From IMG/VR virus record IMGVR_UViG_3300043436_000999: a DNA stretch of 64,000 bases. One strand, 5' to 3'. Numbering within the stretch: the first letter of the stretch is position 1; each line of letters opens with the position of its first letter. This DNA is from an uncultured virus (IMG/VR IMGVR_UViG_3300043436_000999). Its lineage: Duplodnaviria > Heunggongvirae > Uroviricota > Caudoviricetes. The position numbers and the translations under genes are program-made. The notes under the pieces were generated by a model. That model did not search any database. It saw only the letters and a program-made list of their open reading frames with translations, and was not told the origin of the DNA. Below are positions 557 through 63,785 of the stretch, in pieces.

Positions 557-3500
557 TTACAATAGATCCTTGATCATATCCAAAGCTTTCTTTGGTACGT
601 TCTCTGAAGGACCAGAGTAAAGATCAGGAATTCTATATCGTTCATCTGACTTCTCTCCAGTAATCTGAGAGTGGGTTTCTAGTAGACCCATACGGATAAG
701 AGCAGATAGGTACTGATAGCTTCCCAAGAGAGGGAGAGAGGTACCTACCCTAATTACCGTTTGGATTGGTTTCTCCTTAGCGTCTTCCCAGATCCAGCTA
801 TCATCATCGTCATCCTTGGTTCTAGTCAAGCTATAGGCAATAGATTCCATCATAACTAGACCAGCGAGGTGCTTAGAGTATGCAGTAGTTGTATAACGTC
901 TACGTCTACCTATTTCTTGGGTAGAGTGACTAAGTAAGAACTGCATGAATACACCCATAGATCTAGCATAAGGGGATTGATTAATCCGTAGATCCAATAA
1001 GGTAGGATCAGTATTGGTGTGTCTTGAAGTAGCATTTACCAAGGCACCCATACGGTTAATGGTATCTATCTTGATGGGATCTCCATCAGCCCAGATGAAT
1101 AGACGTTGGATATCTAAGAGACCTTCAGAATAGTTACGTTGATCCTTAGCTGCATCAATCATAACTTGGATTCTAGCTGGGTCTAATAAACCCAGAGCAG
1201 ATAGATCTATAGCTTCCTTGGGGGATAGACCACACTTAGTAGCTAGAGATGCAAAGTCAGATAATGAGTCTGGGTTAGCTGACTTCAATAGCTTAGCAAG
1301 AGCCATGAACTTAGCAGAGTTTGTTGTAAGGTTGTATTGCATATTCTGGACATGCAATGTAGTCGTTACATCGTTTACGAAAGCAAGAGGAGCCCCCAGT
1401 CTACTTGCTGGGATAGACAGATAGTTAGCTGCCTTACCAACAATAGAGTCTTCTAACTTGTTTCGTTCCTTAGCTCCTGCCCAAGATGCAGCCCAACTCT
1501 TAAACCAGCCACCCCGCTTAGAACCCATGATTGTTCCACCGAATGGATTGTTTGGATTCATCTCAGCTCTTAACAATAGGTGGTCAGAAGATAGACCACG
1601 GAGCCAGTGAGTAGCGGATGCTACTTGCTGGATGGTCTGTCTCTTATCCCGACTAAATAGCTTTAGGGTCTGGATGAAGTTAGGGATTACTTGACGTAGC
1701 ATACCACGGTTATGGTTACTAGCGAGGATAGCTCTTGCGGTTTCACCAGTTGAGGTTAAAGCCGCTCTGAGACCACTTGCTGAAAGGACAAGGGGTCTAG
1801 AGCCAGATTCAAGCAATGACCTATAGTGACGATCTAGACCGTCTCTACTTGCCATTAACCTTCCGGTATTTGATTCCCAGATATCCTTAATTCTGTCATA
1901 ACCACGGTTTACTGAATCCTGTTCAGTCTTAGCGAGTTGACCTCTGCTTGCCTCACCGTGCTTTCTAGAAACCTCAACGAGATCCAAGAATGACATCTTA
2001 ACACCAAACATATCCGTGATATACTTGGTCATAATGGCATCGGTTACACTGCTGCGTAACTGTTGATAGATCAATCCGTAGATATCCTTATCAAAGTACT
2101 TGGCAAGTTCTGGATTCTTTGCGATATCGTTGTGGGACAAGATTCTGGTAATATCCATTTCACGTCCACCACCAACACCTTCAGTACGTGGCTTACCGCC
2201 ACGGGATTCTGGAGAGTCGATGTTGAGGTATCGGTTCTTAGCTACGGTCATCGTATGTCTAAGAGCCGTATAGTTATCACCACGTGACCGATAGATATCC
2301 CAGTTGACATAGTTTCTAGAAGACACCAAGGCATCCTCATAGATAGTCAACGCATCCTTACCAAGTGAGGCTTTCTTAGCCATATTCTTGAATTCAGAAT
2401 ACTTGTAGACAGCTGGTTCATAACCAAGAGGTGAACCTTCCTTAACCTCAACAGATACGATATCGTCAGAAACCGAATCTCTTGTAAGCTTTACCCAGCC
2501 CAAGGCATCCAACGTAATGATGGATAGATCCTTGCTTTCTCGTTCCTTTGCCAAGGCATGCTTGACAAGGGCATCAACGAACTGGTCTTGTTGCTCAAAG
2601 GCTAACATGTTGACCTTGTGGATTGTACCATACTCTGTTGGCTTCATTGGCGTAATCAACGTACCGTACTTCTCAAGCAAGCCAGACACCAAGGTATTGT
2701 ACTTGTGTACACCCTTAATGAGTTCCACAATCAATTCTCTGTGGACGGCATTATTTGGTAAGCTCTCTAGATCAGCAAGGTATAGCCAAGCTGTTTCGTA
2801 TAGCTGTTCCAACTCTGCGGTCTTTGTGACCTGAGCTGTAATCTTTCTCTGGATATCTAAGAGACCAGCTGCACTGTACATGTTATTTGTTTCTGCGTTA
2901 ACCATGTCAACGGAGAAGAGATCGAATGTACCTGATAGCTCACCATCCCTAAGATCCATAAGAGGATCGTAGATCTTTGAGAAGAACTGTAGCATCATTG
3001 ACTGAGCATCGGCAGTATCGCCGTAAGCGGCACCACCACCAACAAGAGAGTTAAAGACCTTACCAACCTTGGAGTCGGTAATCAATGAATAGATACCAGC
3101 ACTGCGGTTTCTATTGCCAAGCTTTTCTTCTACGGTTGGAAGCAATACGTCACTAACGAAAGATCGTCTTTCGTCATCTGTCAAGTCTCTGTAGTTCTTA
3201 CCTGAGAACTTAATTCTAGAAGCCGTAGCCACGGTCGCTGATGGCTTGGTTCTTCGTGTGAGGTGATCAACGGCTGGCTGACTAAATGCCTTGGTTCCCT
3301 TGATCATACTGTTGATAATCTCTAGATCTTCTGGTTCCATTTCTTCATGTAAGCCAGCAGCTAGAAGATTACGTCTACGAACCTCAGCGGAGTCAACAAG
3401 CTCAGCAAGCTTTGCTTCTAGTTCTCTTGCGTCTGCACCTACTGACTTAGCTGCATCAATTACGTCTTGAGTAGATGTCATAGCTCGCATCTGAGCATAG

Positions 3501-6500
3501 ACCCTACCCTTAGCAGATTTGAGAGCAGAACGAAGTTCAGCTTTACCACCAAGGCTAACAACCTCAGGAATTTGAAGTTCGGTACCAACCAACCTAAACG
3601 GAACATATCCTGGTGTTGGTACCATAACCATACCAAACTGATCAACTGGTTCTACCTTACTTTTGACTACCCCAGTTACAAGATTTGAAACAATGGTTTC
3701 TTGTAGAATTTTATCAGCATTCTTTAACTGTTCTTCGGTTGCTCTAGGAAAAATAGATCTAGAGATTCCGTTAAGCATTTCTTTAACTGGTCTTGTTTTA
3801 GACGCACCAATCGAAGCTTTAGCCCCAGCAAAGAACATAAGTACATCAGAATCTGTTAAGGTGTTTGCGACAAACTCATGTAAGTTAGTTAGGGCATAGT
3901 GAGTAAATGTTGGGGTTTCTGTTACGCCTAACATACCAACAAACTTCTCTTTGTAATCGGAACCCAACAGTTCTAAAGCTTCTGGGGTACGATCAATCCA
4001 ATCAATTGTTGCTAGATAAGCAGATGCAATTGACTTAACACTAGCCTTTAGTTTGTTGCCGTTTAGATCAACACCAGATTGAACACTCTCGCGTAATGCT
4101 GTAATATAAGCATCATATCCATGTCCAGTTATTGTATCAAAGCCAGCTTCACTTATTTCTCTTGCTGTTATAGCATGAATAACTTCGTGAATAAGAGTAG
4201 GTACACTTACCTTACCTTCCCTAACGTTTAGGAAGATGTTATCATAAAAGTATAGACCCTCAGTTTTGTTGTCAAGCTTTGCCACCCAAACACCGACCGT
4301 TTCTAAATAGTCCCTGTGTTCATTTAGGATTTGACCAGCAAGTGTCTTATACTTTGATTGTGGATTGTTCGCTAGTTCTTCAAGAACTTGAACACCGTTT
4401 TCTAGTTCACCTGAAAGAATCTTTCTGTATAGATCACTGGAGGATTCTTGAGCAGCTCTGATTAAATAATCAGGAGCGCGAATGACATCAAGTGGTCCAG
4501 CTGACATTAAGCGTTCTGATAGATCTTCCATGTCTTCTGGGGAGATGCGCTGAGCAAGAGTTTTTTGTTTCTTAGTCTTAAACTCAAGATCAAGAAGCTT
4601 TCGAATTGCTTTAGCTTCGTCCTCTGCTAGATCATCAACAAAGGTTGTAAGTTCATTACGAAGATCTGAGATACGATTCTCAACAGAATTTACGGTTAGT
4701 TGAATTCCGTAATTCTCTAGAAGTCGTGCTGTGTTATCAATATCAGAAGCCTTTTGTAACATACCCTCACGTCTTGCCATAAAGACAGCAGCGAGTTCGG
4801 TCTTACCAATATCAACTAGGTGGGCATGAAACAGTGTAGCTAGATTTCTAATGGCTTCGCTTTCAGCGTGTTGTTTTACGTAGAAGTCTTTTTTCTCTTC
4901 TTTTGTATATTTGGGAACAAGTTTTTCCTGTCCTTCAACTATATTTACTGCTTCACCGCCAGCACCCATTGCCTCTTCGCTACCAATTATCTTCTTGGTT
5001 CCCTTTGATTTTCGTTCAGCGTTTAGTTCAAGATTCTGGATAATCTTCTTTGCAAAAGATGTAGCAGCTTTAGATTTAATAAGACCAGATGCCCAAGCTT
5101 CAGCTTTTTGTTCTGGAGTTAGTGTAATAAGCTTGTCTTTAGTAAGCTTTGTTGTTGGCTCTGCATCTTTTTCAACCATCTCAATCAGACGATCTATTCT
5201 ACTATCTAGTGTTTTAACAATATCATCCACATTAATGCTTGGTTCTGCTTTTGATATAATATCCCAAACTGTTTTTCCAAGATTAGTTAGCTTTAACCAA
5301 TCGGTCTGGATATCGTTACTAATAGCTTTAACTGTAGGTTGTGGAACTACTTCAAGCACAGTGTTACCGAGTACACCAATCTTTATTCTCTCTACAGAGT
5401 TAGTAAACTGAGTGACTGTTCCTTTGGCTTCGTCATACGTCTCAATTAAGTCTTCTTGAGCCTTAGATCTATTTGCCTCAGGTACAGCTCTAGCTGCATC
5501 ATAAGCCGACTTCTTATCCTCAAGATATTTTCTAGTTTCTTTGATTGTATCAATGTGTCGCTCTACAAATTTCTTAGCTCCAACAAACTCTGCAATCAAA
5601 GAACCATTACGCTTGTGCAATAAACCGCTGACGTAAACCTTCAAGTCTTCCATTGACCATTTAATGGTATTAGCTGTTGCTTGTAGATTTGCTGGGGTAG
5701 GTTCTCTAACTAAAGCATCAAGCGGACCTTCATGTTTCGTAGCTAGTTTTTCTAATTCTAGGAAACGATTAAAGTTCTTATCGTCTAGACCCATAATTCC
5801 TTCGATGGTGTGTCTAGAGATTTGAGCGCGTAATTCAGCTTCAAGGAATTGCTTAACTAGATCGCTTGGAATCTGTCGTGTGTTTGTGGTTAACTCTTCA
5901 GCTTTAGCAGAAGTACCAAAAACATCATCATACTCAAGCTTTGTAGTAAGATACTTTTCAAGCAAAGCCTTGGCTCTACTTGGGTTTGCAACAGCTGCAG
6001 CAACAACAGTCTTAACTTCAGCCTTCTTTGCTGCAGGAATACTTTCACCAAGGTTGTCAGCTGTAGCCGAAGCTTCAGTACTGATGGCAGCCAAAGCAAC
6101 AAGCTCAGTCTCAACGCTTACTGGAGTTTCTTCAACATTGATAATCTCTGGAGTAACGATAGGCGCACGTTCTGCTTCTACAGCATCCAGTGTTCTACCT
6201 TCTTCCAAAGCAGCGATGACAGCCGTAGCGTGTTCCTTGTCTACCTTAGCCGTTTCAACTACGGTTGCAACCTTAGTAGCAACAACAGTTTCAGTTGGGG
6301 TTAGTTCTACCTTCATGCCAGCAGAATCGACAAAGGTTCCTGGACCAAGAAGTTCTTCAAGGTCTGCCTTAAGCTCAGATGAAATACCGATATCGGTTTC
6401 AGTCTTACTGACCTTTGACGCAGCGCGTCTCTTAATCTCAGCCTGTAGTTCTTCCTTACTGAAGAATAACTTACTCTCTTCAGTCTTGAAAGCGGCATCA

Positions 6501-9500
6501 ATAAACTTAACCTTTACATCGTCTACAACGCTGATGAATGGGGATTCAATTGCAGCAAACTTTGCAAGCTCTTCGTCTGTAAGCTTTGTTGGATTTGTAA
6601 GCTTATTAGCTGGACGGGCATCAATAGATGTAACTGTACCAATCTTTGCTTCTTCGTCCTTTAGGAAGGTGAGAACAGATTCTCTGCTCATACCAGAAGC
6701 AATAGCTTCCTTAATGACCTTACGTGTTGCGTTGTTGACCTTTTGATAGATCTCTTCTACAACACTTGTTACACTAACTGGCTTAGTTGCCGCAGCTTCC
6801 GCAAGCTTATCTACAACTGGCTTAGCCTTTTCAAATTCAATTTCTTTCTTAGCGAGATAATCGTTAAAGGCCATCTCTCCAAGGATTTCCTTACCAATAG
6901 CAAGGCGTTGTTCCTTTGGCAATCGCTTAAACAAGCCCTGATAGGCTGAGTCAAACAACTCACCGATCTTAGAGTTAGAACGATTGAACAAGGCTTCGAA
7001 TACATCTTCGGCTTCCTTGCTCATTATCATACCAGCTTCTAGTGCCTCTTGGCTCTTGAAGCGTTGACCAAGATCTCCAAGGTGGTCGCCAATTCTGTGG
7101 AATAGACGTTGAACTTGGGTCTTAGGAGCGCGACCATCACCAGACATAACTCGTCTAACGTATTGTGACATACCATTAGCGAACTTCTCTGATGCCTTTT
7201 CGGTCCACTCAGTTCCCGTATAACCAACCCAATCCTTAAACTTTTCCCAGATCTCGTCTGTAATACCAATGGCATGTCGAGCGTCTGGAGTAAGTTCATC
7301 AAGAATCATTACCTGTAAGTAGTGAGACATTTCGTGGGTAACGGTACCAACGTCTGAAGACTTGGTTGCTCGAATAAGAGCGGTGTTACCCTCGAAGAAG
7401 ATCTCTGCGTTTCTATCATCAGCCACTAGGGAAGCAATTCTAAGTAGATTAGAATCACCATCATAACCTAATGAGTCCATGATGATCTTAGCAACCGTAG
7501 CCTCTTCCTTAGTAAGATCAAAGATCTTCTTAATGCTGTCTACGGTTACAGAGGTACCTTCAGCAAAGGTCTTAACAAGTTCTTCCTTGACCTTTGTCTT
7601 CTTTACCTTTTCAATTGTTTCCTTAATCTTAGCCGTCTTTACGTCATTCCAAGCCTTGTTAAGCTTTTCGTTTACCTCAACAAGCTTTGCTTGCAAGGTA
7701 TCCGTATCAACCGTAAGGACATCCTTTGAGAAGAATGGGGACTTAGGATCATCGGCTCGAAGCTTAATGCTGAGTTGTCCATCCTCGCCCTTCTCCAAGG
7801 TTCGCTTGGTGGCAAAGACATCCTTATTCTTTGGATCAACGACAACGGCAAAGTTCTTATTTGAACCCGTTGCGGTAACAACGATTGGCTTATCGCCAAA
7901 AGCTGCAACAAAGATGCTATCAACAACTTCCTTTGGAATGACACGACCGCCACCAAAGTCACCAGTGACGATTCTCTTAAAGGTATTTACAACCTGAGAT
8001 TCATCTACCGATGCCGCTTCGTATCGTGCGGCGGTAATAAAGTTTTGGAAATCTGCATCTGACGATAGATTGATACTACGACCAAGGATTGCTTCTGCCT
8101 TGTTTAGAACCGTAGCGGATGATAATCCGATTTGTTCCAAGCGTCTATCAACACTCTTGGCAGCAACCAATCTCTTAAGTTGTCTTGCAACCTCAACTTG
8201 CTGGGTGGCTACTGGCGCTTCGGTAAGTAACCGACCAGTTGCCGTAGGTGGTTGTGGTTGTTGCTTGGTATTGTAATCAACCAACACAGCCTTAACATCA
8301 TCAATGGTTAGGTCTGCATCTGCAAGGTTTGACTCGTTAACAAGTTGATTAAAGATACCACGGGTTTCTGGATCTACGCCATCTACGCTAAGCATAGCAG
8401 CTTCACCAGCCACACCTGTTGCCTTCTCAAACTCTTCGATAACTGGCATGACGCGCTTAACGTCAAGGTTCATCTTACCCGCAATACGGGGATTGAACTT
8501 ACCAAAGAGACGTGAGCCATTGAGCATGACGTTTGTAAAGTCTCTGCCGTCATAGCTCTTCATAAACTTATCGACTGTATCACCAAAGAAGATACCACGA
8601 CCATCGCTAAGGGTATTACCCCAGACGATATCGCCATCCCTGGTGGTTGCCCACGTATCCATTGAGTTTGCAATCTGTCTACGGAAACCATCCCAGTCTC
8701 CGGTCTTATAATACTTATAGTCACCGATGGACCCAAGACCGAAGCGTACTGCGCTTGCAACACCAACGGCACCAAGGGAGCCAGTTAGAGCAGCTAGAGC
8801 GGTTTCGCCAAGGTTATACTTAAGTGCCTTTTCGGTATCTGCAAAGACCAAGGAACGCCATTCGTTATCGGCCTTCTGGTCTGCCAAGGACGATACGACC
8901 CCGGCGACACCACCCTCAAGGGCTAATGCCAAGCCACGGGCTGACATGGTACTTACAGCTGATCTACCAACCGATGGTACAATGGCCCTAATAGCCGCGT
9001 AGGCTGGTCCTTCGATGAGACCAGTCATTGGGCCTGTCGCTAGCGCGGCGGTGTTGGCGGCCTGTCTAACGAGGTTTAAACCCCTAAGGGCGCGGGAGGA
9101 ATTAACACCCGCAGCAACCGACCCAGACAAGGCTCTGGCAGAGACCCCAGCAAGGCCAGCCACGGTACCCAAACCAAGGGTAGCTACGCTGGTAAGTGCC
9201 ATATCCCGGAGGATCAATGGGTCTTTTATACCTTCAATTAAGGAGTTGCCAAGCTTTGAGAAGAATCCGTTATCTTGCTCAAAGAGATTCATACCAACGT
9301 TAATACGAGCATCTTGAACAGCTTGATTGATATTAAAGATAAAGGCACGATCATTCTTGGTCTCAAGAACATAATCTTGGATGTTAATACCAGCTGCCGC
9401 AATAAACTCATTTACTTCTGGATTAGAGTCTTGCCAATCCGTTAGAGCTGAGAGTTGCTTATCTATTGTCCACTCAGGATCTACGGTCTGTAAAATCTTC

Positions 9501-9949
9501 TTAACCTCATCAGCCTTACGGAACGTTTCGTTCTCTCCAAGAATATTGAAGAAGTTAATACCTTCCACAAACTGTTCTGTATAGCTGGTTTCCCGTTGAT
9601 CTTCTGTGAACATGGCATCGCCCTTGTTCTCAAACTGATCGACAAGTCTATACGCTTTTTGGATGGAGCGTTCACCCCATCCCTTAGAACCTTCACCAAT
9701 AGTAAAGGCAAGGGCTGCATCGCCAACTTCTTCTCGCGTTAGCTTTGATTCACCCATAGTCCAACGTCCGTTTAAGAACGATGGACTAAGCAAGCCAAGC
9801 GATACCTTCTCATTAAAAATCTGTTGCTCATTCATGTTTGGTTTCTGATCGCCAAACATGGATGTTGGATTTGCAAAACTTACAACACTCTGCTCCGAAG
9901 GAAGAGGCTTTCCAACCTCTTCGAGAAGCTTAGTTAAGTCGTTATTCAT
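557..9949 (-). CDS. Giant internal virion (ejected) protein, gp16-like position, polyvalent protein with two HExxH zincin-like domains
   Basis: 3130-aa ORF after the other internal virion genes. N-terminal Gly/Ala-rich hydrophobic helices; motifs VTHEMSH...EKFANG and LIHEVIH...HEFVA. Confidence 0.7.
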   Translation of the reverse strand: MNNDLTKLLEEVGKPLPSEQSVVSFANPTSMFGDQKPNMNEQQIFNEKVSLGLLSPSFLNGRWTMGESKLTREEVGDAALAFTIGEGSKGWGERSIQKAYRLVDQFENKGDAMFTEDQRETSYTEQFVEGINFFNILGENETFRKADEVKKILQTVDPEWTIDKQLSALTDWQDSNPEVNEFIAAAGINIQDYVLETKNDRAFIFNINQAVQDARINVGMNLFEQDNGFFSKLGNSLIEGIKDPLILRDMALTSVATLGLGTVAGLAGVSARALSGSVAAGVNSSRALRGLNLVRQAANTAALATGPMTGLIEGPAYAAIRAIVPSVGRSAVSTMSARGLALALEGGVAGVVSSLADQKADNEWRSLVFADTEKALKYNLGETALAALTGSLGAVGVASAVRFGLGSIGDYKYYKTGDWDGFRRQIANSMDTWATTRDGDIVWGNTLSDGRGIFFGDTVDKFMKSYDGRDFTNVMLNGSRLFGKFNPRIAGKMNLDVKRVMPVIEEFEKATGVAGEAAMLSVDGVDPETRGIFNQLVNESNLADADLTIDDVKAVLVDYNTKQQPQPPTATGRLLTEAPVATQQVEVARQLKRLVAAKSVDRRLEQIGLSSATVLNKAEAILGRSINLSSDADFQNFITAARYEAASVDESQVVNTFKRIVTGDFGGGRVIPKEVVDSIFVAAFGDKPIVVTATGSNKNFAVVVDPKNKDVFATKRTLEKGEDGQLSIKLRADDPKSPFFSKDVLTVDTDTLQAKLVEVNEKLNKAWNDVKTAKIKETIEKVKKTKVKEELVKTFAEGTSVTVDSIKKIFDLTKEEATVAKIIMDSLGYDGDSNLLRIASLVADDRNAEIFFEGNTALIRATKSSDVGTVTHEMSHYLQVMILDELTPDARHAIGITDEIWEKFKDWVGYTGTEWTEKASEKFANGMSQYVRRVMSGDGRAPKTQVQRLFHRIGDHLGDLGQRFKSQEALEAGMIMSKEAEDVFEALFNRSNSKIGELFDSAYQGLFKRLPKEQRLAIGKEILGEMAFNDYLAKKEIEFEKAKPVVDKLAEAAATKPVSVTSVVEEIYQKVNNATRKVIKEAIASGMSRESVLTFLKDEEAKIGTVTSIDARPANKLTNPTKLTDEELAKFAAIESPFISVVDDVKVKFIDAAFKTEESKLFFSKEELQAEIKRRAASKVSKTETDIGISSELKADLEELLGPGTFVDSAGMKVELTPTETVVATKVATVVETAKVDKEHATAVIAALEEGRTLDAVEAERAPIVTPEIINVEETPVSVETELVALAAISTEASATADNLGESIPAAKKAEVKTVVAAAVANPSRAKALLEKYLTTKLEYDDVFGTSAKAEELTTNTRQIPSDLVKQFLEAELRAQISRHTIEGIMGLDDKNFNRFLELEKLATKHEGPLDALVREPTPANLQATANTIKWSMEDLKVYVSGLLHKRNGSLIAEFVGAKKFVERHIDTIKETRKYLEDKKSAYDAARAVPEANRSKAQEDLIETYDEAKGTVTQFTNSVERIKIGVLGNTVLEVVPQPTVKAISNDIQTDWLKLTNLGKTVWDIISKAEPSINVDDIVKTLDSRIDRLIEMVEKDAEPTTKLTKDKLITLTPEQKAEAWASGLIKSKAATSFAKKIIQNLELNAERKSKGTKKIIGSEEAMGAGGEAVNIVEGQEKLVPKYTKEEKKDFYVKQHAESEAIRNLATLFHAHLVDIGKTELAAVFMARREGMLQKASDIDNTARLLENYGIQLTVNSVENRISDLRNELTTFVDDLAEDEAKAIRKLLDLEFKTKKQKTLAQRISPEDMEDLSERLMSAGPLDVIRAPDYLIRAAQESSSDLYRKILSGELENGVQVLEELANNPQSKYKTLAGQILNEHRDYLETVGVWVAKLDNKTEGLYFYDNIFLNVREGKVSVPTLIHEVIHAITAREISEAGFDTITGHGYDAYITALRESVQSGVDLNGNKLKASVKSIASAYLATIDWIDRTPEALELLGSDYKEKFVGMLGVTETPTFTHYALTNLHEFVANTLTDSDVLMFFAGAKASIGASKTRPVKEMLNGISRSIFPRATEEQLKNADKILQETIVSNLVTGVVKSKVEPVDQFGMVMVPTPGYVPFRLVGTELQIPEVVSLGGKAELRSALKSAKGRVYAQMRAMTSTQDVIDAAKSVGADARELEAKLAELVDSAEVRRRNLLAAGLHEEMEPEDLEIINSMIKGTKAFSQPAVDHLTRRTKPSATVATASRIKFSGKNYRDLTDDERRSFVSDVLLPTVEEKLGNRNRSAGIYSLITDSKVGKVFNSLVGGGAAYGDTADAQSMMLQFFSKIYDPLMDLRDGELSGTFDLFSVDMVNAETNNMYSAAGLLDIQRKITAQVTKTAELEQLYETAWLYLADLESLPNNAVHRELIVELIKGVHKYNTLVSGLLEKYGTLITPMKPTEYGTIHKVNMLAFEQQDQFVDALVKHALAKERESKDLSIITLDALGWVKLTRDSVSDDIVSVEVKEGSPLGYEPAVYKYSEFKNMAKKASLGKDALTIYEDALVSSRNYVNWDIYRSRGDNYTALRHTMTVAKNRYLNIDSPESRGGKPRTEGVGGGREMDITRILSHNDIAKNPELAKYFDKDIYGLIYQQLRSSVTDAIMTKYITDMFGVKMSFLDLVEVSRKHGEASRGQLAKTEQDSVNRGYDRIKDIWESNTGRLMASRDGLDRHYRSLLESGSRPLVLSASGLRAALTSTGETARAILASNHNRGMLRQVIPNFIQTLKLFSRDKRQTIQQVASATHWLRGLSSDHLLLRAEMNPNNPFGGTIMGSKRGGWFKSWAASWAGAKERNKLEDSIVGKAANYLSIPASRLGAPLAFVNDVTTTLHVQNMQYNLTTNSAKFMALAKLLKSANPDSLSDFASLATKCGLSPKEAIDLSALGLLDPARIQVMIDAAKDQRNYSEGLLDIQRLFIWADGDPIKIDTINRMGALVNATSRHTNTDPTLLDLRINQSPYARSMGVFMQFLLSHSTQEIGRRRRYTTTAYSKHLAGLVMMESIAYSLTRTKDDDDDSWIWEDAKEKPIQTVIRVGTSLPLLGSYQYLSALIRMGLLETHSQITGEKSDERYRIPDLYSGPSENVPKKALDMIKDLL

Positions 9950-16210: not shown

Positions 16211-17881
16211 TTATCTCCTGTAGAAATTATCAATTATAGAGCCGTGTCGTTTATTGACACGCTCTTGTGCTTCAACGATACCCCGATACTTCTCACCAAG
16301 TAGACCAACAATACGCTTATTGCTGAGCCATTCCTTGACGGTATCGCGGTGTTCTCTGTCTACGTTTCTTTGGATAATCTCATCTGGTGTGATGACCAGA
16401 TTATCTACCCAGAGTTTTACAATACTGGCGAGAACGTCAACACGGTCATCGTGCTTTAACGCTCCCCGCTTATTTTGCATTCTTGAGATTTGGATTTGTG
16501 TTTCCTTTGATCGAATAGCTTCGGTATCAAAGATCAATCGGTGTTGAGACATTACAGGCTCTAGTGTATCTAAGATTCTTTTCTCTTTAGCTCCCGATAC
16601 TTTGAACTCTTCAATCGCAACACGACCACAGATTCCATATACAATAGGTCTAAGCAATGACGTAAACATACCGTCTCCGTAGTTTGCTTCGACCATGATG
16701 GTTGATACTTGATATTGATTTGCAATCTTTGCAATTCGACCCAAAGTAATATCATCATAGCCACCGGGTAGACCATCTAGTTCGTGGATAACAATGTATC
16801 CATTCACGAAGGATGCCACACAGTAAGCTGTTTCGTCTGCACCACGACCAGAGGGGTCGATACACAATCTGGTATCAACATACTTGGTCATCGTAGCAGA
16901 TGCCCACATGGGGCCATACAAGAGATCTCCATTCAAGCCATAGCTAGGAATGTCTAGTGGCTTGTTTCTTGCCCACACGACCTTCTCTGGAAATACCTCT
17001 GGAGATACGTCCATGACAACAAGATCCTCAAGCTTTAGAGGATGCTTGCTGGCATCGCTAAGGGATGGGTCAAGCAAGTAGTGCAAAGCAAACTGCCGTG
17101 GTCCAATCTTAGCTAGGCGTTCCTCTAGAATGTGCTGAGGAAAGCGCATGGGATCTACAGTATCTCCGGGTTGTCCCTCAAGATCAGAGATGTATTCGTG
17201 ACAGTGTAACCACTGAGACTCAATCTCTGGATCTGGGATGACAGCAGGAAACTTTACAATCTCATAGGGTAGACGTAGATAGATTGAATCCGTACTTTGA
17301 TACGTACCCAAGAATACAATCCTACCGTATGGAACTGGATTTCTAATCTGCTCTAGTTCTGTTAACTTGTCTAACAACTTCTGTCGAGCTTGAGGACTAT
17401 CGGAGTTCTTCTCAATCTCAATATCGTCAGCCAACACATAATCTGCGTGGCTACCTGTAATCTGTCCTGTGATACCCTTGGCATAACAAGACAAGTCCTG
17501 ACCAACCTTATCCCGAATACCAACATTAAAACCAAAGGCTGAGTCTTTATCGTGTTCCTTTGGAAGTAGGTGTTTCATGTAGGGGACTAAACTCAGGATC
17601 TGACGAACCTGAGAAATAAACTTGATGGCCTTGTCCTGTGTTGCAGACAAGACCATGATTGTTGTGTTTGGATTGTTTAACAATAACCACGAAGCATACA
17701 TAGCAACGATGGTTGACTTGCCAGCACCACGACCAGCTTGGAGCTGCATATCCTTGGGGCCATTCTGTACACACTCAGCGATTGCATACTGAAGTGGGCT
17801 TGGCTCACCAAGTCCAAGGTACTTCATACAAAAGAAGCAATGATTTCGAAAGTCTTCTAAGACTTCATCTGGTACTTGCAT
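16211..17881 (-). CDS. terL: Terminase large subunit (T7 gp19-like)
   Basis: Walker A AGRGAGKST, Walker B VLADDIE, nuclease IDPSGRGADET and HDDRVD motifs. Confidence 0.95.
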   Translation of the reverse strand: MQVPDEVLEDFRNHCFFCMKYLGLGEPSPLQYAIAECVQNGPKDMQLQAGRGAGKSTIVAMYASWLLLNNPNTTIMVLSATQDKAIKFISQVRQILSLVPYMKHLLPKEHDKDSAFGFNVGIRDKVGQDLSCYAKGITGQITGSHADYVLADDIEIEKNSDSPQARQKLLDKLTELEQIRNPVPYGRIVFLGTYQSTDSIYLRLPYEIVKFPAVIPDPEIESQWLHCHEYISDLEGQPGDTVDPMRFPQHILEERLAKIGPRQFALHYLLDPSLSDASKHPLKLEDLVVMDVSPEVFPEKVVWARNKPLDIPSYGLNGDLLYGPMWASATMTKYVDTRLCIDPSGRGADETAYCVASFVNGYIVIHELDGLPGGYDDITLGRIAKIANQYQVSTIMVEANYGDGMFTSLLRPIVYGICGRVAIEEFKVSGAKEKRILDTLEPVMSQHRLIFDTEAIRSKETQIQISRMQNKRGALKHDDRVDVLASIVKLWVDNLVITPDEIIQRNVDREHRDTVKEWLSNKRIVGLLGEKYRGIVEAQERVNKRHGSIIDNFYRR

Positions 17882-18042
17882 GAGTACCTCCTTTCAAATA
17901 GGAGGGTAGACCTACCGATCTACCCTCCCGTAGCGAAATTCCCGGCGCAATTGATTGCCCGGTAGAGCGGCCATAATACACCAGCCTATCATAGCGGGTG
18001 CGGCCAATATAGACTAGTCCCAGCTTGCGCTGTCTATGCGGA
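17882..18042 (-). ncRNA. Candidate structured RNA / 5' leader of terL
   Basis: 161-nt intergenic region with four hairpins (17901-17928, 17942-17962, 17969-18005, 18009-18037); one carries a GCAA tetraloop on the minus strand. Confidence 0.5.
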
Positions 18043-18243
18043 CTAGGCTTGTTTCTTGAGCTTAAAGGGAGATAGTCCCTCTAAGGTTTCAGCCCTGACG
18101 GCTGGAATTGTGTCTGATTTATTATCTGCAACTACCCGTGCGACTACTTGATATAGTCCAGGTGATCGCTTATCGGGATCGCTAAGATCTTCAATCAGAC
18201 AATCAATGAGAAGATCCTTTAGTGTGTTGATTCCCTTGTCCAT
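18043..18243 (-). CDS. Probable terminase small subunit (T7 gp18-like)
   Basis: 66-aa ORF directly upstream of terL, with a helical LIEDL...VARVVADNK pattern similar to T7-like small terminases. Confidence 0.6.
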   Translation of the reverse strand: MDKGINTLKDLLIDCLIEDLSDPDKRSPGLYQVVARVVADNKSDTIPAVRAETLEGLSPFKLKKQA

Positions 18244-18246
18244 GTG

Positions 18247-18582
18247 TCACTTCTTTTTCTTTTTGTTCTGGTATCGCTCAAGAAGGCGGCGACCCTTTGA
18301 AACCGCAGAAGCTTTATCACCATAGTGATTCCATGCCTCTAGGCTTAGCTTGAGTCGGGTCTTACGTCCCTTCTCATCCTTTAGTGGTCCAGCTGCAGAA
18401 CCCATTCTAACTAAGAATGAACCCTGTCTACGAATTTCCTCTGGTGTCTTTGGCGAACGGCCAACAGGTGCCTTTAGGTTTGATCCAGTTGCTCTGTTAT
18501 ATTTGTTTCGACCAGCTTGGGTAAGACCACCCTTTGGATTCTTATCCTTCTTGGTCATGGAGACTGATGGTTTCTTTGGCAT
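18247..18582 (-). CDS. Small basic phage protein (DUF6321-like)
   Basis: KNPKGGLT..GR..YNRATGSNLKAPV and SFLVRMG pattern; highly Lys/Arg-rich. Confidence 0.6.
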   Translation of the reverse strand: MPKKPSVSMTKKDKNPKGGLTQAGRNKYNRATGSNLKAPVGRSPKTPEEIRRQGSFLVRMGSAAGPLKDEKGRKTRLKLSLEAWNHYGDKASAVSKGRRLLERYQNKKKKK

Positions 18583-18698
18583 TACTTCTTCTTCTTTGGT
18601 GCCTTCTTCATAGGCTTACCTGTCTTCTTAGCAGCGGCCTTAGCCATTGCCATACCCTTAGCAGTATATGGGAATTCCTTCTTTCCAACCTTAGGCAT
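18582..18698 (-). CDS. 38-aa very basic protein (not in ORF track)
   Basis: MPKVGKKEFPYTAKGMAMAKAAAKKTGKPMKKAPKKKK. GGAGG RBS; start and stop overlap both neighbours. Confidence 0.7.
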   Translation of the reverse strand: MPKVGKKEFPYTAKGMAMAKAAAKKTGKPMKKAPKKKK

Positions 18699-18829
18699 CA
18701 CTTGCCTCCCTTGAAAAGCTTTGCAAGGGCAGTGATTGGAACAATGTGTGCGGCAATGTAGCCGACAACTAAAGTGAGGCCAGCAAACCAGATGCTGCCA
18801 AGTAACGATTCGAATGAAGCTAAAATCAT
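18698..18829 (-). CDS. 43-aa membrane protein (not in ORF track)
   Basis: MILASFESLLGSIWFAGLTLVVGYIAAHIVPITALAKLFKGGK. AGGAG RBS; hydrophobic core. Confidence 0.7.
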   Translation of the reverse strand: MILASFESLLGSIWFAGLTLVVGYIAAHIVPITALAKLFKGGK

Positions 18830-20927: not shown

Positions 20928-23504
20928 TTATCCTGTTACAGTCCAACCCTTTGCCGTTGCGATTGTTGGGGTATCTCCTGCGACCCCCCAGTTACCTGAT
21001 ACGTTTATGGTTTTTGAAGTTACTGTTGGTAAGTTCGTGTAAATTTCGTTTAACTCATCTGCTGATAATACACCAGGATTTGGTAAAAAAATGTTTTGAT
21101 TAAATCCTGTTGCTCTTATACGAGATAGACTAGAACAACCAGAGACTATACTAGAGAAAATTGTAGTTGTTGCTGTTTGTTGAAAACTTAGGGCTGGTAG
21201 TTCTACTAAAGAAGAACAATTCTGAAACATTGATTGATACGATGTTACAGTACTGAGTAGTGGTATTACTCGTAATAGTGGTATTGTTTTTAAACTACTA
21301 CAGTTAGAAAACATACCATTAAAATTAACGCCACTAGCTAAATTTAGTAATGGTATTGTTTGTAAGCTACTACAGCTAGAAAACATACTACTAAAGTTAG
21401 TGCCATTACCAGTATTCAATAGTGGAATTGTTATTAGTGATTCACAGGTAGTAAACATAGAGTTAAAATCAGTACCCCTTGATGTATCTAGTAGTGGTAT
21501 AGATTTTAAAGAACGGCAAAAATTAAACATACTGCTAAAGTTAGTGCCATTAGGTGTATTTAGTAACGGTATTGTTTGTAAGCTACTACAGCTAGCAAAC
21601 ATAGAATTAAAGCTAAGACCTTTTGACGTATCTAGTAGTGGTATAGATTTTAAATTAACACAGCTAGAAAACATATTACTAAAGGCAGTGCCACTACCTG
21701 TATTAAGTAATGGTATAGTTTTTAAACTACTACAGCTAGCAAACATATCACTAAAATTCGTATTCTTTGCGGTATTTAAATTTGGTATAAACTGTAAACT
21801 AATACAATTACTAAACATACTATTAAGGTTTGTTCCCTTTGCTGTATCTAGTAATGGTATAAACTGTAAGCTACGACATTGAAAAAACATCTGACTAAAG
21901 CTAGTGCCATTAGATGTATTTAGTAATGGTATAGTTTTTAAACTAGTACAACCAATAAACATCTGCGAAAAATTAGTTCCACTAGCAGTATCTAGTTGTG
22001 GAATAGTTTTTAAATTAAAGCAACCGTTAAACATACCTGTAAAGTTAGTACTACTGGATGTGTTTAGCTTTGGAATGGTTTTTAAACCGTTGCAACCATT
22101 AAACGCATTATCAAAGGTACTATGAAGTCTACACCACTCAGTTCCTATTATTTTTTGTAATGATCTCATACCATAAAATTGTAAACCTTGAAGAGACGTA
22201 TATGAATTAAACGTTCCAATGTACTCAACTTGCTCTAGTAAATTCCAACGTATTGTTTGTGATATGGTGGCAAATACAAAAGTGTTTATACTATTTCCAG
22301 CTATTTTAAAATCTAAAAAGTTTACTCCAGATGCTGAAGATAAAGACGTGTGTCTATTTTCTAAGTTAATTGAAGTTAGATTTTGACCAGCCTGTGGTGT
22401 AATAGTTATCGTAACTGTTTTATAGCCGCGAAACTCATCTTGATTTGTTATTGCTGCGTATGAAGCACTATCGTATTGTTTCTGAGCAGCAACATTGGAA
22501 TTTACATTCGCAGATGTACCATCACCCCAGTCAACTGTATAGTTACCGGATACGGTAAATCTTACAAAATTAGAGTCGTTGTTATATACTGCAAATGTTC
22601 CTACAATTTTTTGTTCTCCAGCAGAAACTGTTGGAGATGGTTTCCACCCACCGATTGTAACTGTTGTTGGTGTTGAGAATTTCTTAGTAGTATTTGCCGT
22701 AATTCCAGTTACAGCTCCACCAGACACTGTAGCATATGCAATAAAATCATCACTGGAGATACCATTTAAATACACAGTAGGTTGTTGAGTATACCCAGAT
22801 CCACCAGCAGTAATTGTAAATGCTCCAAGATTTCCAGTAACAACAGCCGTGGCAGCAGCATTACTTCCGCCACCACCAGAAAAAGCAACAGTTGGCGCTG
22901 ATGTATATCCAGTACCACACACTATTCTTGGAATTGCTACGGCTTGCCTTGTTGATCCTGCTGTGCTTAAAGTAATTGTAGGTACTCCTACATATCGACT
23001 TCCAGGATTTGTAATGGTAATACCAACTAATCTACCGTTTTCAATCACAGCAGTTCCTTGTGCTGTTGTTCCACCAGTAGCTGGAGCGGAAAAGGTAACT
23101 GTTGGTGTACTTGTATATCCTTCACCTTTATCGGTTATAATAACTTCAGCAACAGTATTCCACAAAGTTACGGCAAGTACGTTACCACCTGATACAAACG
23201 CTACTCCTTCTGCTCCACTGCCTCCACCACCGGATATAGTGACTGTTGGTGCTGTAGAATAGCCTGTTCCTAAGTTTGTTATATTAACGGAAGTAACGCT
23301 TCCATTTACAAGAGCAACAGTAGCAGTCGCTCCAGACCCATTTCCATTTGTAGGTCGAACGTATTCTGAATCGGAAGAGTCTTCAAGAGTATTAAAAGTA
23401 TCTTCGCTGTTTAGAAAGGTTTTTGACGATGACATTACACCGCCAGTTAAATTTTTTAAATTAAACTTTCCAATATAACCGTTATTGTGTCTATTTTTTC
23501 TCAT
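20928..23504 (-). CDS. BspA/DUF285-type leucine-rich repeat protein with N-terminal G(S/T)GYT beta repeats; likely adhesin or receptor-binding protein
   Basis: About 13 24-aa repeats SLKTIPLLNTSNGTNFSSMFxxCx, several GTGYSTAPTVTISGGGG repeats, and a TVDWGDG (PKD-like) motif. Confidence 0.8.
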   Translation of the reverse strand: MRKNRHNNGYIGKFNLKNLTGGVMSSSKTFLNSEDTFNTLEDSSDSEYVRPTNGNGSGATATVALVNGSVTSVNITNLGTGYSTAPTVTISGGGGSGAEGVAFVSGGNVLAVTLWNTVAEVIITDKGEGYTSTPTVTFSAPATGGTTAQGTAVIENGRLVGITITNPGSRYVGVPTITLSTAGSTRQAVAIPRIVCGTGYTSAPTVAFSGGGGSNAAATAVVTGNLGAFTITAGGSGYTQQPTVYLNGISSDDFIAYATVSGGAVTGITANTTKKFSTPTTVTIGGWKPSPTVSAGEQKIVGTFAVYNNDSNFVRFTVSGNYTVDWGDGTSANVNSNVAAQKQYDSASYAAITNQDEFRGYKTVTITITPQAGQNLTSINLENRHTSLSSASGVNFLDFKIAGNSINTFVFATISQTIRWNLLEQVEYIGTFNSYTSLQGLQFYGMRSLQKIIGTEWCRLHSTFDNAFNGCNGLKTIPKLNTSSSTNFTGMFNGCFNLKTIPQLDTASGTNFSQMFIGCTSLKTIPLLNTSNGTSFSQMFFQCRSLQFIPLLDTAKGTNLNSMFSNCISLQFIPNLNTAKNTNFSDMFASCSSLKTIPLLNTGSGTAFSNMFSSCVNLKSIPLLDTSKGLSFNSMFASCSSLQTIPLLNTPNGTNFSSMFNFCRSLKSIPLLDTSRGTDFNSMFTTCESLITIPLLNTGNGTNFSSMFSSCSSLQTIPLLNLASGVNFNGMFSNCSSLKTIPLLRVIPLLSTVTSYQSMFQNCSSLVELPALSFQQTATTTIFSSIVSGCSSLSRIRATGFNQNIFLPNPGVLSADELNEIYTNLPTVTSKTINVSGNWGVAGDTPTIATAKGWTVTG
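21270..22110. repeat. 72-bp tandem repeats encoding the LRR units
   Basis: Recurring AAACAT...TAGT..TGGTAT.G units with a 72-bp period; AT-rich. Confidence 0.8.
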
Positions 23505-52686: not shown

Positions 52687-52760
52687 CATCCCTGAGTGGA
52701 CTCGAACCACTGACCATTCGCTTAGAAGGCGAATGCTCTATCCAACTGAGCTACAGGGAT
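52687..52760 (-). tRNA. tRNA-Arg (UCU)
   Basis: Cloverleaf ATCCCTG/CAGGGAT, D-arm GCTCAGTTGGATAGAGC, anticodon loop CT-TCT-AA, GGTTCGAGTCC. Confidence 0.93.
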
Positions 52761-53218: not shown

Positions 53219-53291
53219 TACCACAGGTGGGACTCGAACCCACACTACACAGATTTTAAGTCTATTGACTCTGCCATTGGTCTACTGTGGC
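53219..53291 (-). tRNA. tRNA-Leu (UAA) with short variable loop
   Basis: GCCACAG/CTGTGGT acceptor, A discriminator, loop CT-TAA-AA, GGGTTCGAGTCCC, 5-nt variable loop. Confidence 0.88.
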
Positions 53292-53297
53292 TGATAG

Positions 53298-53375
53298 TAG
53301 AAGGGGTGGGAGTCGAACCCACATGAGCGCGATTATAAGTCACGACCTTTTACCAAATCTATCAGGCACCCTTCC
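53298..53375 (-). tRNA. tRNA-Ile (UAU)
   Basis: GGAAGGG/CCCTTCT acceptor, CGTGA-CT-TAT-AA-TCGCG anticodon arm, GGGTTCGACTCCC, enlarged D-loop. Confidence 0.85.
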
Positions 53376-53412
53376 ATGAACGTGCGTTGGAGAGCCGCAC
53401 CCCTCTGTTACA

Positions 53413-56277: not shown

Positions 56278-56505
56278 TCAACTTTGTTCTTCGATGTAGA
56301 TGTCAACTTTGACATGGGTAGCCTTCTTTGCTTTCTTTGCGCCAAGGTACTTGGCTAAGTAGGATAGAAACTGAGTGTGCATGAAGTCACTTGGACACAT
56401 GAAACTCAATGTTACTTCTGTCTTCTTCTTGTCAATCATAGCCTTGTGAATAGACTTGACTGCTTCTTCGATTGCCCCTTCATTATCTACGATGTGTACT
56501 TTCAA
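56278..56505 (-). CDS. Hypothetical protein
   Basis: 75 aa coupled to the RNAP stop. Confidence 0.55.
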   Translation of the reverse strand: MKVHIVDNEGAIEEAVKSIHKAMIDKKKTEVTLSFMCPSDFMHTQFLSYLAKYLGAKKAKKATHVKVDIYIEEQS

Positions 56506-62754: not shown

Positions 62755-62786
62755 GAAACGTATCGGATATTTCACCCATACATTTC
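62755..62786 (-). repeat. Hairpin repeat copy 1
   Basis: Minus strand GAAATGTAT-GGGTGAAATATCC-GATACGTTTC. Confidence 0.75.
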
Positions 62787-62793
62787 GGAACAT

Positions 62794-62912
62794 CTCGCGG
62801 GGGATTCTAACCCCCGACATAGTACCACATACGTTGGGAAGACGTATGCGTTGCCACTAGATTATCTTCCCTTGATAATCTGTGACCTAACTATGTGTCA
62901 CGACAGACCGAG
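62794..62912 (-). ncRNA. Candidate structured RNA with kissing loops, a pseudoknot and a T-arm-like hairpin
   Basis: Stems at 62882-62901, 62859-62881, 62827-62849 and 62799-62815 with mutually complementary loops; closed by CTCG/CGAG. Confidence 0.6.
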
Positions 62913-62916
62913 TAAA

Positions 62917-62948
62917 GGAACGTGTGGGGTATTTCACCCACACCTTCC
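62917..62948 (-). repeat. Hairpin repeat copy 2
   Basis: Minus strand GGAAGGTGT-GGGTGAAATACCC-CACACGTTCC. Confidence 0.75.
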
Positions 62949-62952
62949 GCGA

Positions 62953-63282
62953 TTAGTTGCAGAGGAAGATGACGGTTTCGGTTGAGTCCATCGGGAACGA
63001 TTGACCACACACCTTATACTTCGGCTCAAACTTCTCCGTATAGAGACGAGCCCCAGTCCCGAACGAATGGAGAAGAGCATTCAGTCTCGACTTCGTTGTG
63101 GGAGTATTCCACCCACACAAGCACACCGACAACGCATGAGCGGCACGATGATATCGTGCGATACGATTCCCGTGCAGGAACACCTCACACCCCTTATCCG
63201 TGACTAACACCTCTGTGTTGCCACGACGGAAATACTTGTTCGAACGAACTGCGATGCACATTGCCTGTTCAATTTGACGCAT
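62953..63282 (-). CDS. Conserved-looking early phage protein
   Basis: MRQIEQAM...NTEV...VFLHGNRIA...GWNTPTTKSRLNALL; GAGGAG RBS. Confidence 0.7.
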   Translation of the reverse strand: MRQIEQAMCIAVRSNKYFRRGNTEVLVTDKGCEVFLHGNRIARYHRAAHALSVCLCGWNTPTTKSRLNALLHSFGTGARLYTEKFEPKYKVCGQSFPMDSTETVIFLCN

Positions 63283-63382
63283 TATCGCTTCTCCTCAAGG
63301 TGAGAGACCATGTTGCCAGCCACGTAGATACATCCCGCCACAACCATTGCGACGGTACACAACACGAACAACTCAATCCACA

Positions 63383-63571
63383 TCATCGCCGCACCACCTT
63401 GTAACGGCGAGAAACTTCCGCGAAGAATGCCCACCCAACGAAGATGAGCAGTTGACCACCAATCAAACCCTGCACCACACTCTCGTACTGAACTTCAACG
63501 AACGAAAGGACGGTGAGAACTAGACCGTTCACAAACACCCACAGAAACGCAAACTTCTCTTCAATGTCCAT
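63383..63571 (-). CDS. Small two-TM early membrane protein
   Basis: Start at MDIEEKF after GGAG; two hydrophobic segments. Confidence 0.5.
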   Translation of the reverse strand: MDIEEKFAFLWVFVNGLVLTVLSFVEVQYESVVQGLIGGQLLIFVGWAFFAEVSRRYKVVRR

Positions 63572-63616
63572 GACGTATGCTCCGAAAGAGTTGCGAGTGA
63601 CACACACACAATGAAA

Positions 63617-63648
63617 GAAACGTTCGGGATATTTCACCCGAACGTTCC
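63617..63648 (-). repeat. Hairpin repeat copy 3
   Basis: Minus strand GGAACGTTC-GGGTGAAATATCC-CGAACGTTTC. Confidence 0.85.
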
Positions 63649-63745
63649 AGCGTCATTATCTTATTCATAGATAACGCGGCACTATGAATTGCACAAACTT
63701 GGGATAACGTACAGAGAACGTAGCAGTTTGAACTACACTCAACGG
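63649..63745 (-). ncRNA. Second candidate structured RNA between repeat copies 3 and 4
   Basis: Three stems; loop ATTCATAG is complementary to CTATGAAT in the neighbouring hairpin. Confidence 0.45.
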
Positions 63746-63749
63746 GAAA

Positions 63750-63782
63750 GAAACGTTCGGGATAATTTCACCCGAACGTTCC
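63750..63782 (-). repeat. Hairpin repeat copy 4
   Basis: Minus strand GGAACGTTC-GGGTGAAATTATCC-CGAACGTTTC, identical to copy 3 except for one inserted base. Confidence 0.85.
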
Positions 63783-63785
63783 TGA

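What the first reader, a model, noticed from the sequence alone, without database searches (positions are those of the whole stretch)
17882..18046. Four-hairpin RNA between terS and terL with a switch over the terL ribosome-binding site
Seen: one of the few long intergenic gaps in the late region, GC-rich and fully occupied by stems. The last stem GGAGGGUAGAUC-GGUA-GGUCUACCCUCC has a 3' arm (CCUCCU) that can instead pair with the terL Shine-Dalgarno AGGAGG 7 nt downstream. The first stem (AUAGAC/GUCUAU with a GCAA tetraloop) competes with CUAGUCC/GGACUAG, which overlaps the terS stop codon. Known: phi29-like phages use a pRNA in the packaging motor, but T7-like phages are not known to. Inference: a cis switch setting the TerS:TerL ratio, or a packaging-associated RNA.
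Basis: partly seen in the sequence, partly recalled or inferred. Interest (0 to 1): 0.7.

Follow-up and report, generated by a model that had tools for sequence, protein, structure and literature searches.

The report
Structured RNA before phage terminase gene
The gap between the two DNA-packaging genes of a group of uncultured freshwater T7-like phages encodes a conserved folded RNA that matches no catalogued RNA family and most likely turns down production of the DNA-cutting packaging enzyme.

Summary
The structure is real. The 161-nt terS-terL gap of this T7-like phage (genes on the minus strand) is the most stable of 1596 windows of the mRNA strand. It recurs as 18 distinct sequences in relatives, with 27 of 46 pairs compensatory and invariant single-stranded motifs. 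Rfam has no match. The proposed switch is not supported: pairing the last stem with the Shine-Dalgarno costs 13.7 kcal/mol, and the arm sequences vary freely. An essential pRNA is unlikely, because near-complete sister genomes lack the motif. Best reading (0.5): a cis control region that damps terL. It ends in a Tphi-sized hairpin with a short U tail (inferred leaky terminator). The upstream domain (P1-P3) probably binds a protein, most likely TerS. Function is untested. The scan has noted other structured terS-terL gaps in other genomes, but not this sequence.

The parts
18043..18243 (-). terS, small terminase (66 aa); its stop codon lies in the 5' arm of P1a
18014..18046 (-). P1: stem P1a (18046-18040 with 18020-18014), a 7-nt 5' bulge holding the invariant CAUAG (18039-18033), and inner stem P1b with a GCAA loop (18032-18021)
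   Evidence: P1a 7 of 7 pairs compensatory; CAUAGNC in 18 of 18 (it was part of the pattern used to pick members)
18006..18013 (-). J1/2 linker (UACGCU in 15 of 18 members; diverged in the window's own clade)
17969..18005 (-). P2: conserved basal GCCG/CGGC-type stem, 3' bulge, variable upper stem
   Evidence: upper stem 7 of 8 pairs compensatory; basal stem varies on one side only
17942..17968 (-). J2/3 (GC-start motif) and P3 with invariant GGGC; GCC/GGC is a possible alternative or tertiary pairing
   Evidence: P3 only 1 of 9 pairs compensatory; GCC/GGC never covaries
17930..17938 (-). J3/4 linker UUUCGCUAC; single copy of UUCGCUAC on the mRNA strand; also kept in the reduced 'mini' version of a sister clade
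   Evidence: UCGCUAC 18 of 18 (part of the selection pattern), UUCGCUAC 16 of 18
17896..17929 (-). P4: 13-bp GC-rich hairpin plus AUUU tail; Tphi-sized, inferred leaky terminator or pause
   Evidence: 10 of 13 pairs compensatory; -18.5 to -27.1 kcal/mol, 2-5 U in the next 8 nt; same size as the genome's own U-tailed hairpin after the capsid gene
17886..17895 (-). extended Shine-Dalgarno GAAAGGAGGU of terL; GAAAGGAGG occurs once in the window
   Evidence: 15 of 18 members
17871..17888 (-). P5: hairpin that pairs the SD's last GG plus spacer with terL codons 2-4 and holds the AUG in its loop
   Evidence: 15 of 15 members; pair 4 is A-U in 12, G-C in 2 (with Val3 to Ala), G-U in 1
16211..17881 (-). 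terL, T7-type large terminase (556 aa), followed by four large genes in the position of T7 internal virion proteins (no profile hit; assigned by position and size)

Best explanation
The gap is a cis-acting control region of the late mRNA that keeps TerL scarce relative to TerS. Shown: a conserved RNA fold (P1-P4 plus P5) on the mRNA strand, found only in front of terL. Inferred, step 1: the phage RNA polymerase reads through terS and stops or pauses part of the time at P4, a Tphi-sized hairpin whose short U tail makes it leaky; only read-through transcripts carry terL and the genes behind it. Inferred, step 2: on those transcripts an unusually long SD is half-masked by P5, so initiation is damped and can be gated. 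Inferred, weakest step: P1-P3 and the invariant single-stranded motifs (CAUAG bulge, UACGCU, GGGC, UUUCGCUAC) form a folded protein-binding domain. The likeliest ligand is TerS, whose gene ends at P1; binding would tune read-through or P5 opening, or stabilise the terS transcript's 3' end. The domain is an accessory: sister lineages manage with P3-linker-P4, with a bare hairpin, or with terS overlapping the terL start.
For: Covariation: 96.6% of cells paired, 27 of 46 pairs compensatory, score 0.594 against 0.188 shuffled and at most 0.152 slid (alignment fitted to the model). On a plain MAFFT alignment 20 of 30 predicted pairs are compensatory. All 18 members fold at z -3.2 to -8.4 and better than their reverse complement. 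Fixed position: a model built without the window hits it once, 65.7 bits; 0 of 80 other loci, terL-family loci plus two T7 regions; other pattern hits give nothing (0 of 19; 1 weak hit of 80). P4 has the size of this genome's U-tailed hairpins after the capsid gene (34534-34503) and at 129-98. T7 Tphi is followed by U-run, GAAAGGAGG and the gene 11 start in the same layout; Tphi has a 13-bp stem and 62% efficiency (PMC9157156, passages), and genes 11-12 depend on its read-through (PMC2952870, passages). Relatives without the motif often keep a 13-16-bp hairpin with a U/A tail in the same gap (L245 group, L186, L188-L190, L193). No phage-promoter match between 17850 and 18900: best score 0.6 against 38-41 for the three candidate promoters. 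P5 is present in 15 of 15 with a compensatory change that alters TerL residue 3.
Against: The U tail is poor (2-5 U in 8 nt; 3 in the window), and the terminator scan did not call P4. No upstream segment covaries with the P4 5' arm (own -11.9 versus cross -12.1 kcal/mol, p 0.52), so there is no RNA-only antiterminator. No ligand or binding is shown; TerS binding is a guess from adjacency. P5 rests on one compensatory position, seen in two sister sequences that may be one event, and its other pairs lie in SD and codon positions constrained anyway. In L230, L233 and L234 the SD is 82 nt beyond P4 and P5 is weak. Three relatives have no gap at all. No transcript ends were measured.
Confidence: 0.5

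Rival explanations
1. P1-P4 is released or left as a stable RNA of about 150 nt that binds terminase. It would restrain the TerL nuclease until packaging, in the layout of a type III toxin-antitoxin locus (RNA, leaky terminator, toxic enzyme gene), or act as an accessory packaging RNA.
For: The module is self-contained, has a 3' hairpin, and tolerates inserted hairpins (L019, L061, L172). Invariant unpaired motifs suit a protein-binding fold. The layout matches RCd22-abiF (bioRxiv 10.1101/2025.04.15.648962, passages). Staphylococcal cabRNA comes from the terS-terL region and needs TerS for its proper length (PMC10686824, passages).
Against: No promoter of its own, so a 5' end needs processing. 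It is absent from near-complete sister genomes (0 of 4; 1 of 5 with only the positive control). No three-way junction in the predicted fold.
Confidence: 0.15
2. The element is a processing signal: a self-cleaving ribozyme of an undescribed class, or a nuclease site in J3/4 or the P4 base, that cuts the late mRNA between terS and terL.
For: Invariant unpaired nucleotides among freely varying stems. A possible lower stem UUUC/GAAA with an internal loop under P4 in the window, similar in outline to T7 early intergenic hairpins (RNase III labels recalled). J3/4 survives in the mini version.
Against: No Rfam ribozyme match even at E up to 10 for the window or up to 1 for 8 homologue loci. The lower stem is lost in L230, L233 and L234, which carry a separate long hairpin downstream. 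The mini version lacks P1-P2.
Confidence: 0.13
3. A purely translational control region: P1-P4 recruits or positions the ribosome, or a repressor, at the P5-masked start of terL, replacing the terS-terL overlap used by relatives, and P4 does not terminate.
For: P5 and the extended SD are conserved. The weak U tail argues against termination. In L233 and L234 the extra DNA is one self-contained hairpin, so folded P4-to-SD spacing stays about 11-12 nt (read). L023, L025 and L029 overlap terS with the terL start.
Against: P4 length matches the genome's terminator-like hairpins. Relatives keep a hairpin with U/A tail without the upstream domain. No covarying contact between P1-P4 and the RBS was found.
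Confidence: 0.13
4. One reading: the P4 arm flips to pair with the terL SD, triggered by refolding of P1 at the terS stop.
For: CCUCCU/AGGAGG complementarity exists in the window. A C/U-rich arm able to pair 5-7 nt with the SD occurs in several others. The terS stop lies in or close to P1 in all members.
Against: It costs 13.7 kcal/mol, probability at most 2e-5; at most 0.007 in 16 of 18 members. No partner sequesters the displaced arm.
Confidence: 0.05
5. A DNA-level site (promoter, pac or origin) whose palindromes only look like RNA structure.
For: UUCGCUAC is single-copy on the coding strand, and several phages package from sites near terS (recalled).
Against: G-U pairs and GNRA/UUCG loops make sense on the mRNA strand only, and that strand folds better in 18 of 18. 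No match to the phage promoter. Sister genomes lack the 8-mer.
Confidence: 0.04

Closest known systems
T7 class I terminator Tphi, between genes 10 and 11 (PMC9157156, PMC2952870; passages read; sequence)
   Same: Hairpin of about 13 bp, then U residues, GAAAGGAGG and the start of a gene that depends on read-through; single-subunit phage RNA polymerase.
   Different: U tail of only 2-5; sits between terS and terL (T7 has spanin genes 18.5/18.7 there); preceded by a conserved three-domain fold of about 115 nt and followed by an RBS-masking hairpin.
phi29 prohead RNA (PMC5066667; passages read)
   Same: Phage non-coding RNA of similar size (174 nt), linked to packaging genes, with covarying helices.
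   Different: pRNA is essential, has a three-way junction and interlocking loops, and is known only from phi29-like phages. This element is a string of hairpins in a TerS/TerL phage and is missing from sister genomes.
cabRNA of staphylococcal phages (PMC10686824; passages read)
   Same: Structured RNA from the terS-terL region; TerS influences it.
   Different: cabRNA lies in coding sequence of siphoviruses and is not a conserved motif; here an intergenic covarying motif in a T7-like phage, with no evidence of CBASS activation.
Type III toxin-antitoxin and AbiF/RCd22 loci (bioRxiv 10.1101/2025.04.15.648962; passages read)
   Same: Layout of structured RNA, leaky terminator and a gene for a nuclease-bearing protein.
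   Different: No tandem repeats and no own promoter; the downstream gene is an essential terminase; RNA-protein binding is untested.
Candidate structured RNAs upstream of terminase genes from IMG/VR (PMC10690425; passages and searchable supplement tables read)
   Same: Same database and kind of context; 14 candidates lie upstream of psiM2_ORF9-type terminases.
   Different: No candidate could be matched. Five motif strings gave no hit in the searchable files, but the two zip files were not searchable and three large files are unreadable, so part of this motif may be listed there.

Membership tests
Any Rfam 15 family | covariance-model match at gathering score | tested here: not met
   one chance snoRNA hit, E 4.2; 0 hits in 8 loci
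T7 Tphi-type class I terminator | stable GC-rich hairpin of about 13 bp | tested here: met
   11-14 bp, -18.5 to -27.1 kcal/mol in 18 of 18; 10 of 13 pairs compensatory
T7 Tphi-type class I terminator | oligo(U) tract right after the stem | tested here: inconclusive
   2-5 U in 8 nt, against a long U run at Tphi and after this phage's capsid gene
T7 Tphi-type class I terminator | transcripts end at the tail; downstream gene made by read-through | not testable with these tools
   only assembled contigs were available; no promoter match in the region
phi29 pRNA | essential part of the motor, so present in all relatives | tested here: not met
   absent from near-complete sister genomes; a non-homologous substitute is not excluded
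phi29 pRNA | phi29-type motor | tested here: not met
   T7-type TerL (NF033889) and TerS
phi29 pRNA | three-way junction with two complementary interlocking loops | tested here: inconclusive
   predicted fold is linear; only a 3-bp UAG/CUA complementarity is universal and it cannot covary
Riboswitch or attenuator with RNA antiterminator | alternative helix that covaries with the terminator arm | tested here: not met
   (p 0.52)
SD-sequestering switch through P4 | competitive, conserved anti-SD helix | tested here: not met
Type III toxin-antitoxin | tandem RNA repeats | tested here: not met
   no repeat family at the element among the 20 largest shown; one model hit per genome at E below 1
Type III toxin-antitoxin | RNA binds and neutralises the downstream protein | not testable with these tools
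   needs binding assays
Self-cleaving ribozyme | site-specific self-cleavage | not testable with these tools
   no Rfam class matched

The most novel reading that the evidence does not exclude
P1-P4 is a discrete RNA that binds terminase: it holds the TerL nuclease in check or assists packaging in a T7-type TerS/TerL motor, produced in excess over TerL by a leaky terminator. To my knowledge it would be the first such RNA partner of a T7-like terminase.
Probability: 0.15. Interest if true: 0.85.

Novelty: new variant of a known kind. Interest (0 to 1): 0.55.

Why it matters
How T7-like phages set the ratio of small to large terminase is not explained by anything at this locus in T7 itself, where spanin genes fill the gap. 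This clade offers a natural series in one place: full RNA, mini RNA, bare hairpin and direct gene overlap. That makes the function of each part testable with a reporter and purified proteins. The upstream domain is an undescribed RNA fold with invariant unpaired motifs; if it binds terminase or cuts itself it would be a new kind of phage RNA, and if it only tunes termination it is a new leader-type regulator.

Tried and rejected
Rfam: nothing. blastn against 50,697 phage records: no hit to the gap; the nearest named TerL proteins are only 36-40% identical. Metatranscriptomes: 22 RNA runs hold part of window 17300-18700; 4 were laid, all as contigs. One freshwater run has a contig covering 17932-19571 that stops at the J3/4 linker without a loose end, and no contig over most of terL. 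The other three stop at 17980, 18046 and 18285, and one of them has a terL piece (17332-17569). Contigs cannot show ends, strand or level, so this is not used as evidence. Phage promoter inside the element: rejected. TerS-TerL fusion by read-through or frameshift: gap length modulo 3 varies (0, 1, 2) and the terL frame has stops in the 10 members printed before the script failed. Conserved leader peptide: none seen. Pseudoknot of the CAUAG bulge with J1/2, J3/4 or the start codon: possible but untestable because CAUAG is invariant; my bracket test of it was mis-registered and is disregarded. GCC/GGC pairing: never covaries. HDV-like, hammerhead, group II domain V, group I P7 and T-box likenesses were considered from memory and dropped because the core motifs or their order do not fit. 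Copies in other contexts: loose pattern scans gave mostly chance hits. The metagenome scan added no member. Papers: searches found no description of this motif; most subscription journals are not covered. The own assembly is not held.

Full report
Setting. The window is nearly a whole T7-like phage genome with its genes on the minus strand: RNA polymerase 56502-58898, primase-helicase, DNA polymerase, portal, scaffold, capsid, tail tubes, then terS and a T7-type terL. The closest named TerL proteins are 36-40% identical. RNA runs that hold the stretch are mostly from lakes and rivers.

Observation. The gap 17882-18042 folds on the mRNA strand at z -4.56 and is more stable than all 1596 sliding 165-nt windows of that strand (-69.8 kcal/mol; the + strand gives -54.1).

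Relatives. TerL searches gave 33, 25 and 80 loci (one search kept the best 80 of 175), and pattern scans added more. Eighteen distinct full versions were found, at TerL identities from 61 to 100%. A covariance model built from 7 relatives without the window finds the element once in the 64 kb (65.7 bits, E 4e-17) and in 18 of 18 sources tested, and in 0 of 80 other loci. On the 15 members without large insertions (L019, L061 and L172 left out), 27 of 46 pairs have compensatory changes and the covariation score is 0.594, against 0.188 shuffled and at most 0.152 slid. That alignment was fitted to the model and the sequences are related, so the number is not a probability. A plain MAFFT alignment gave 20 of 30. 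P1a, upper P2 and P4 are well supported; P3 is weak (1 of 9). Conserved unpaired motifs are CAUAGNC, UACGCU (15 of 18), GGGC and UCGCUAC. Three of these were used to pick members, but they were first seen as invariant in TerL-selected loci.

Distribution. In a TerL tree of 87 rows, all carriers fall in one clade of 38 rows (support 92). Counting by hand and correcting two mis-tags (L005 is full, L269 is mini): 20 rows have the full RNA; 8 have a mini version, P3-like hairpin, UUCGCUAC and P4 (L243 is cut by its contig end); 6 have a bare 13-14-bp hairpin before the SD; 3 have terS overlapping the terL start; 1 is cut off. Near-complete genomes of the reduced lineages have no model hit anywhere (positive control found), and two lack even the 8-mer. 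The full RNA is therefore not an essential trans-acting part of the motor in this family, unless something unrelated replaces it.

P4. It is always an 11-14-bp hairpin with a short U tail. This genome has hairpins of the same size with long U tails after the capsid gene and near the genome end, and one with a short tail at 9994-9967. T7 Tphi shows the same order of hairpin, U run, GAAAGGAGG and start codon. It is built to leak (62%, PMC9157156, passages), and genes 11-12 depend on that leak (PMC2952870, passages). Only three candidate phage promoters were found, none near the element. Against termination: the tail has only 2-5 U, the terminator scan missed it, and no antiterminator covaries with it.

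P5. In 15 of 15 members with the adjacent SD, the last GG of the SD and its spacer pair with codons 2-4 of terL, leaving the start codon in the loop. One pair reads A-U in 12, G-C in 2 and G-U in 1, and the G-C form changes TerL residue 3. Among 22 start regions of the window, terL has the second most stable fold and the longest SD match, though that probe was derived from terL's own SD. Weaker pairings of the same kind appear in several relatives without the motif.

Mechanism. I infer a two-step brake on TerL (leaky stop at P4, masked start at P5) with an upstream folded domain that binds a protein, probably TerS (0.5). That excess terminase nuclease harms the phage or host is recalled, not tested. 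The transcript contigs cannot decide among them.

Known systems. There is no Rfam match. P4 works like Tphi, but membership is open because the U tract is inconclusive. The element fails pRNA on essentiality and motor type (PMC5066667, passages). cabRNA (PMC10686824, passages) and RCd22-abiF (bioRxiv 10.1101/2025.04.15.648962, passages) are analogies of place and layout only. Six literature searches found no description. The IMG/VR catalogue of PMC10690425 lists candidates upstream of terminases, but its alignment files could not be read, so prior listing of part of this motif is not excluded. The scan's earlier notes describe other terS-terL structures in other genomes and no look-alike of this sequence.

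Verdict. A real, apparently undescribed RNA motif of limited phylogenetic range, most likely a cis regulator of terL. New variant of a known kind; interest 0.55.

Noticed in passing
window minus strand 436, 44963, 58972: Three copies of a 27-nt motif (core AGUCCCUGA..., ending GCUAGG) score 38-41 against a next best of 10 (scored with a matrix built from these same three sites); candidate promoters of the phage RNA polymerase. Only three in 64 kb, and none in the structural region.
   Followed up: partly
window 62757-63785, minus strand: Four early-region hairpins share a GGGUGAAAU loop region; they resemble repeated RNase III-type processing sites.
   Followed up: no
window 34534-34503, 9994-9967, 129-98, minus strand: Terminator-like hairpins after the capsid gene, between the two largest late genes and near the genome end.
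   Followed up: partly
window 21273-22064: Nine 72-nt repeats inside the 862-aa ORF (24-residue repeats, likely leucine-rich or solenoid).
   Followed up: no
window 557-9949: A 3130-aa ORF without a PHROG match at the position of T7 gene 16; terL precedes this gene block, unlike in T7.
   Followed up: no
L172 (minus strand, terL start): terL appears to start at AUC rather than AUG behind the extended SD; a non-standard start or an assembly error.
   Followed up: no
L233:1415-1490, L234, L230: A long hairpin (about 28 bp in L233) sits between P4 and the terL SD; an RNase III-type substrate by shape.
   Followed up: partly
terL codons 3-4 across the family: Pro4 is invariant in the 10 aligned TerL proteins and its codon pairs with the SD in many relatives; the residue may be kept for RNA structure.
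   Followed up: partly
window 52687-52760, 53219-53291 and about 53300-53380: Two tRNA genes by Rfam; a third tRNA-like stretch is suggested by a repeat.
   Followed up: no
window 18247-18829: A cluster of tiny lysine-rich ORFs upstream of terS that varies between relatives.
   Followed up: no
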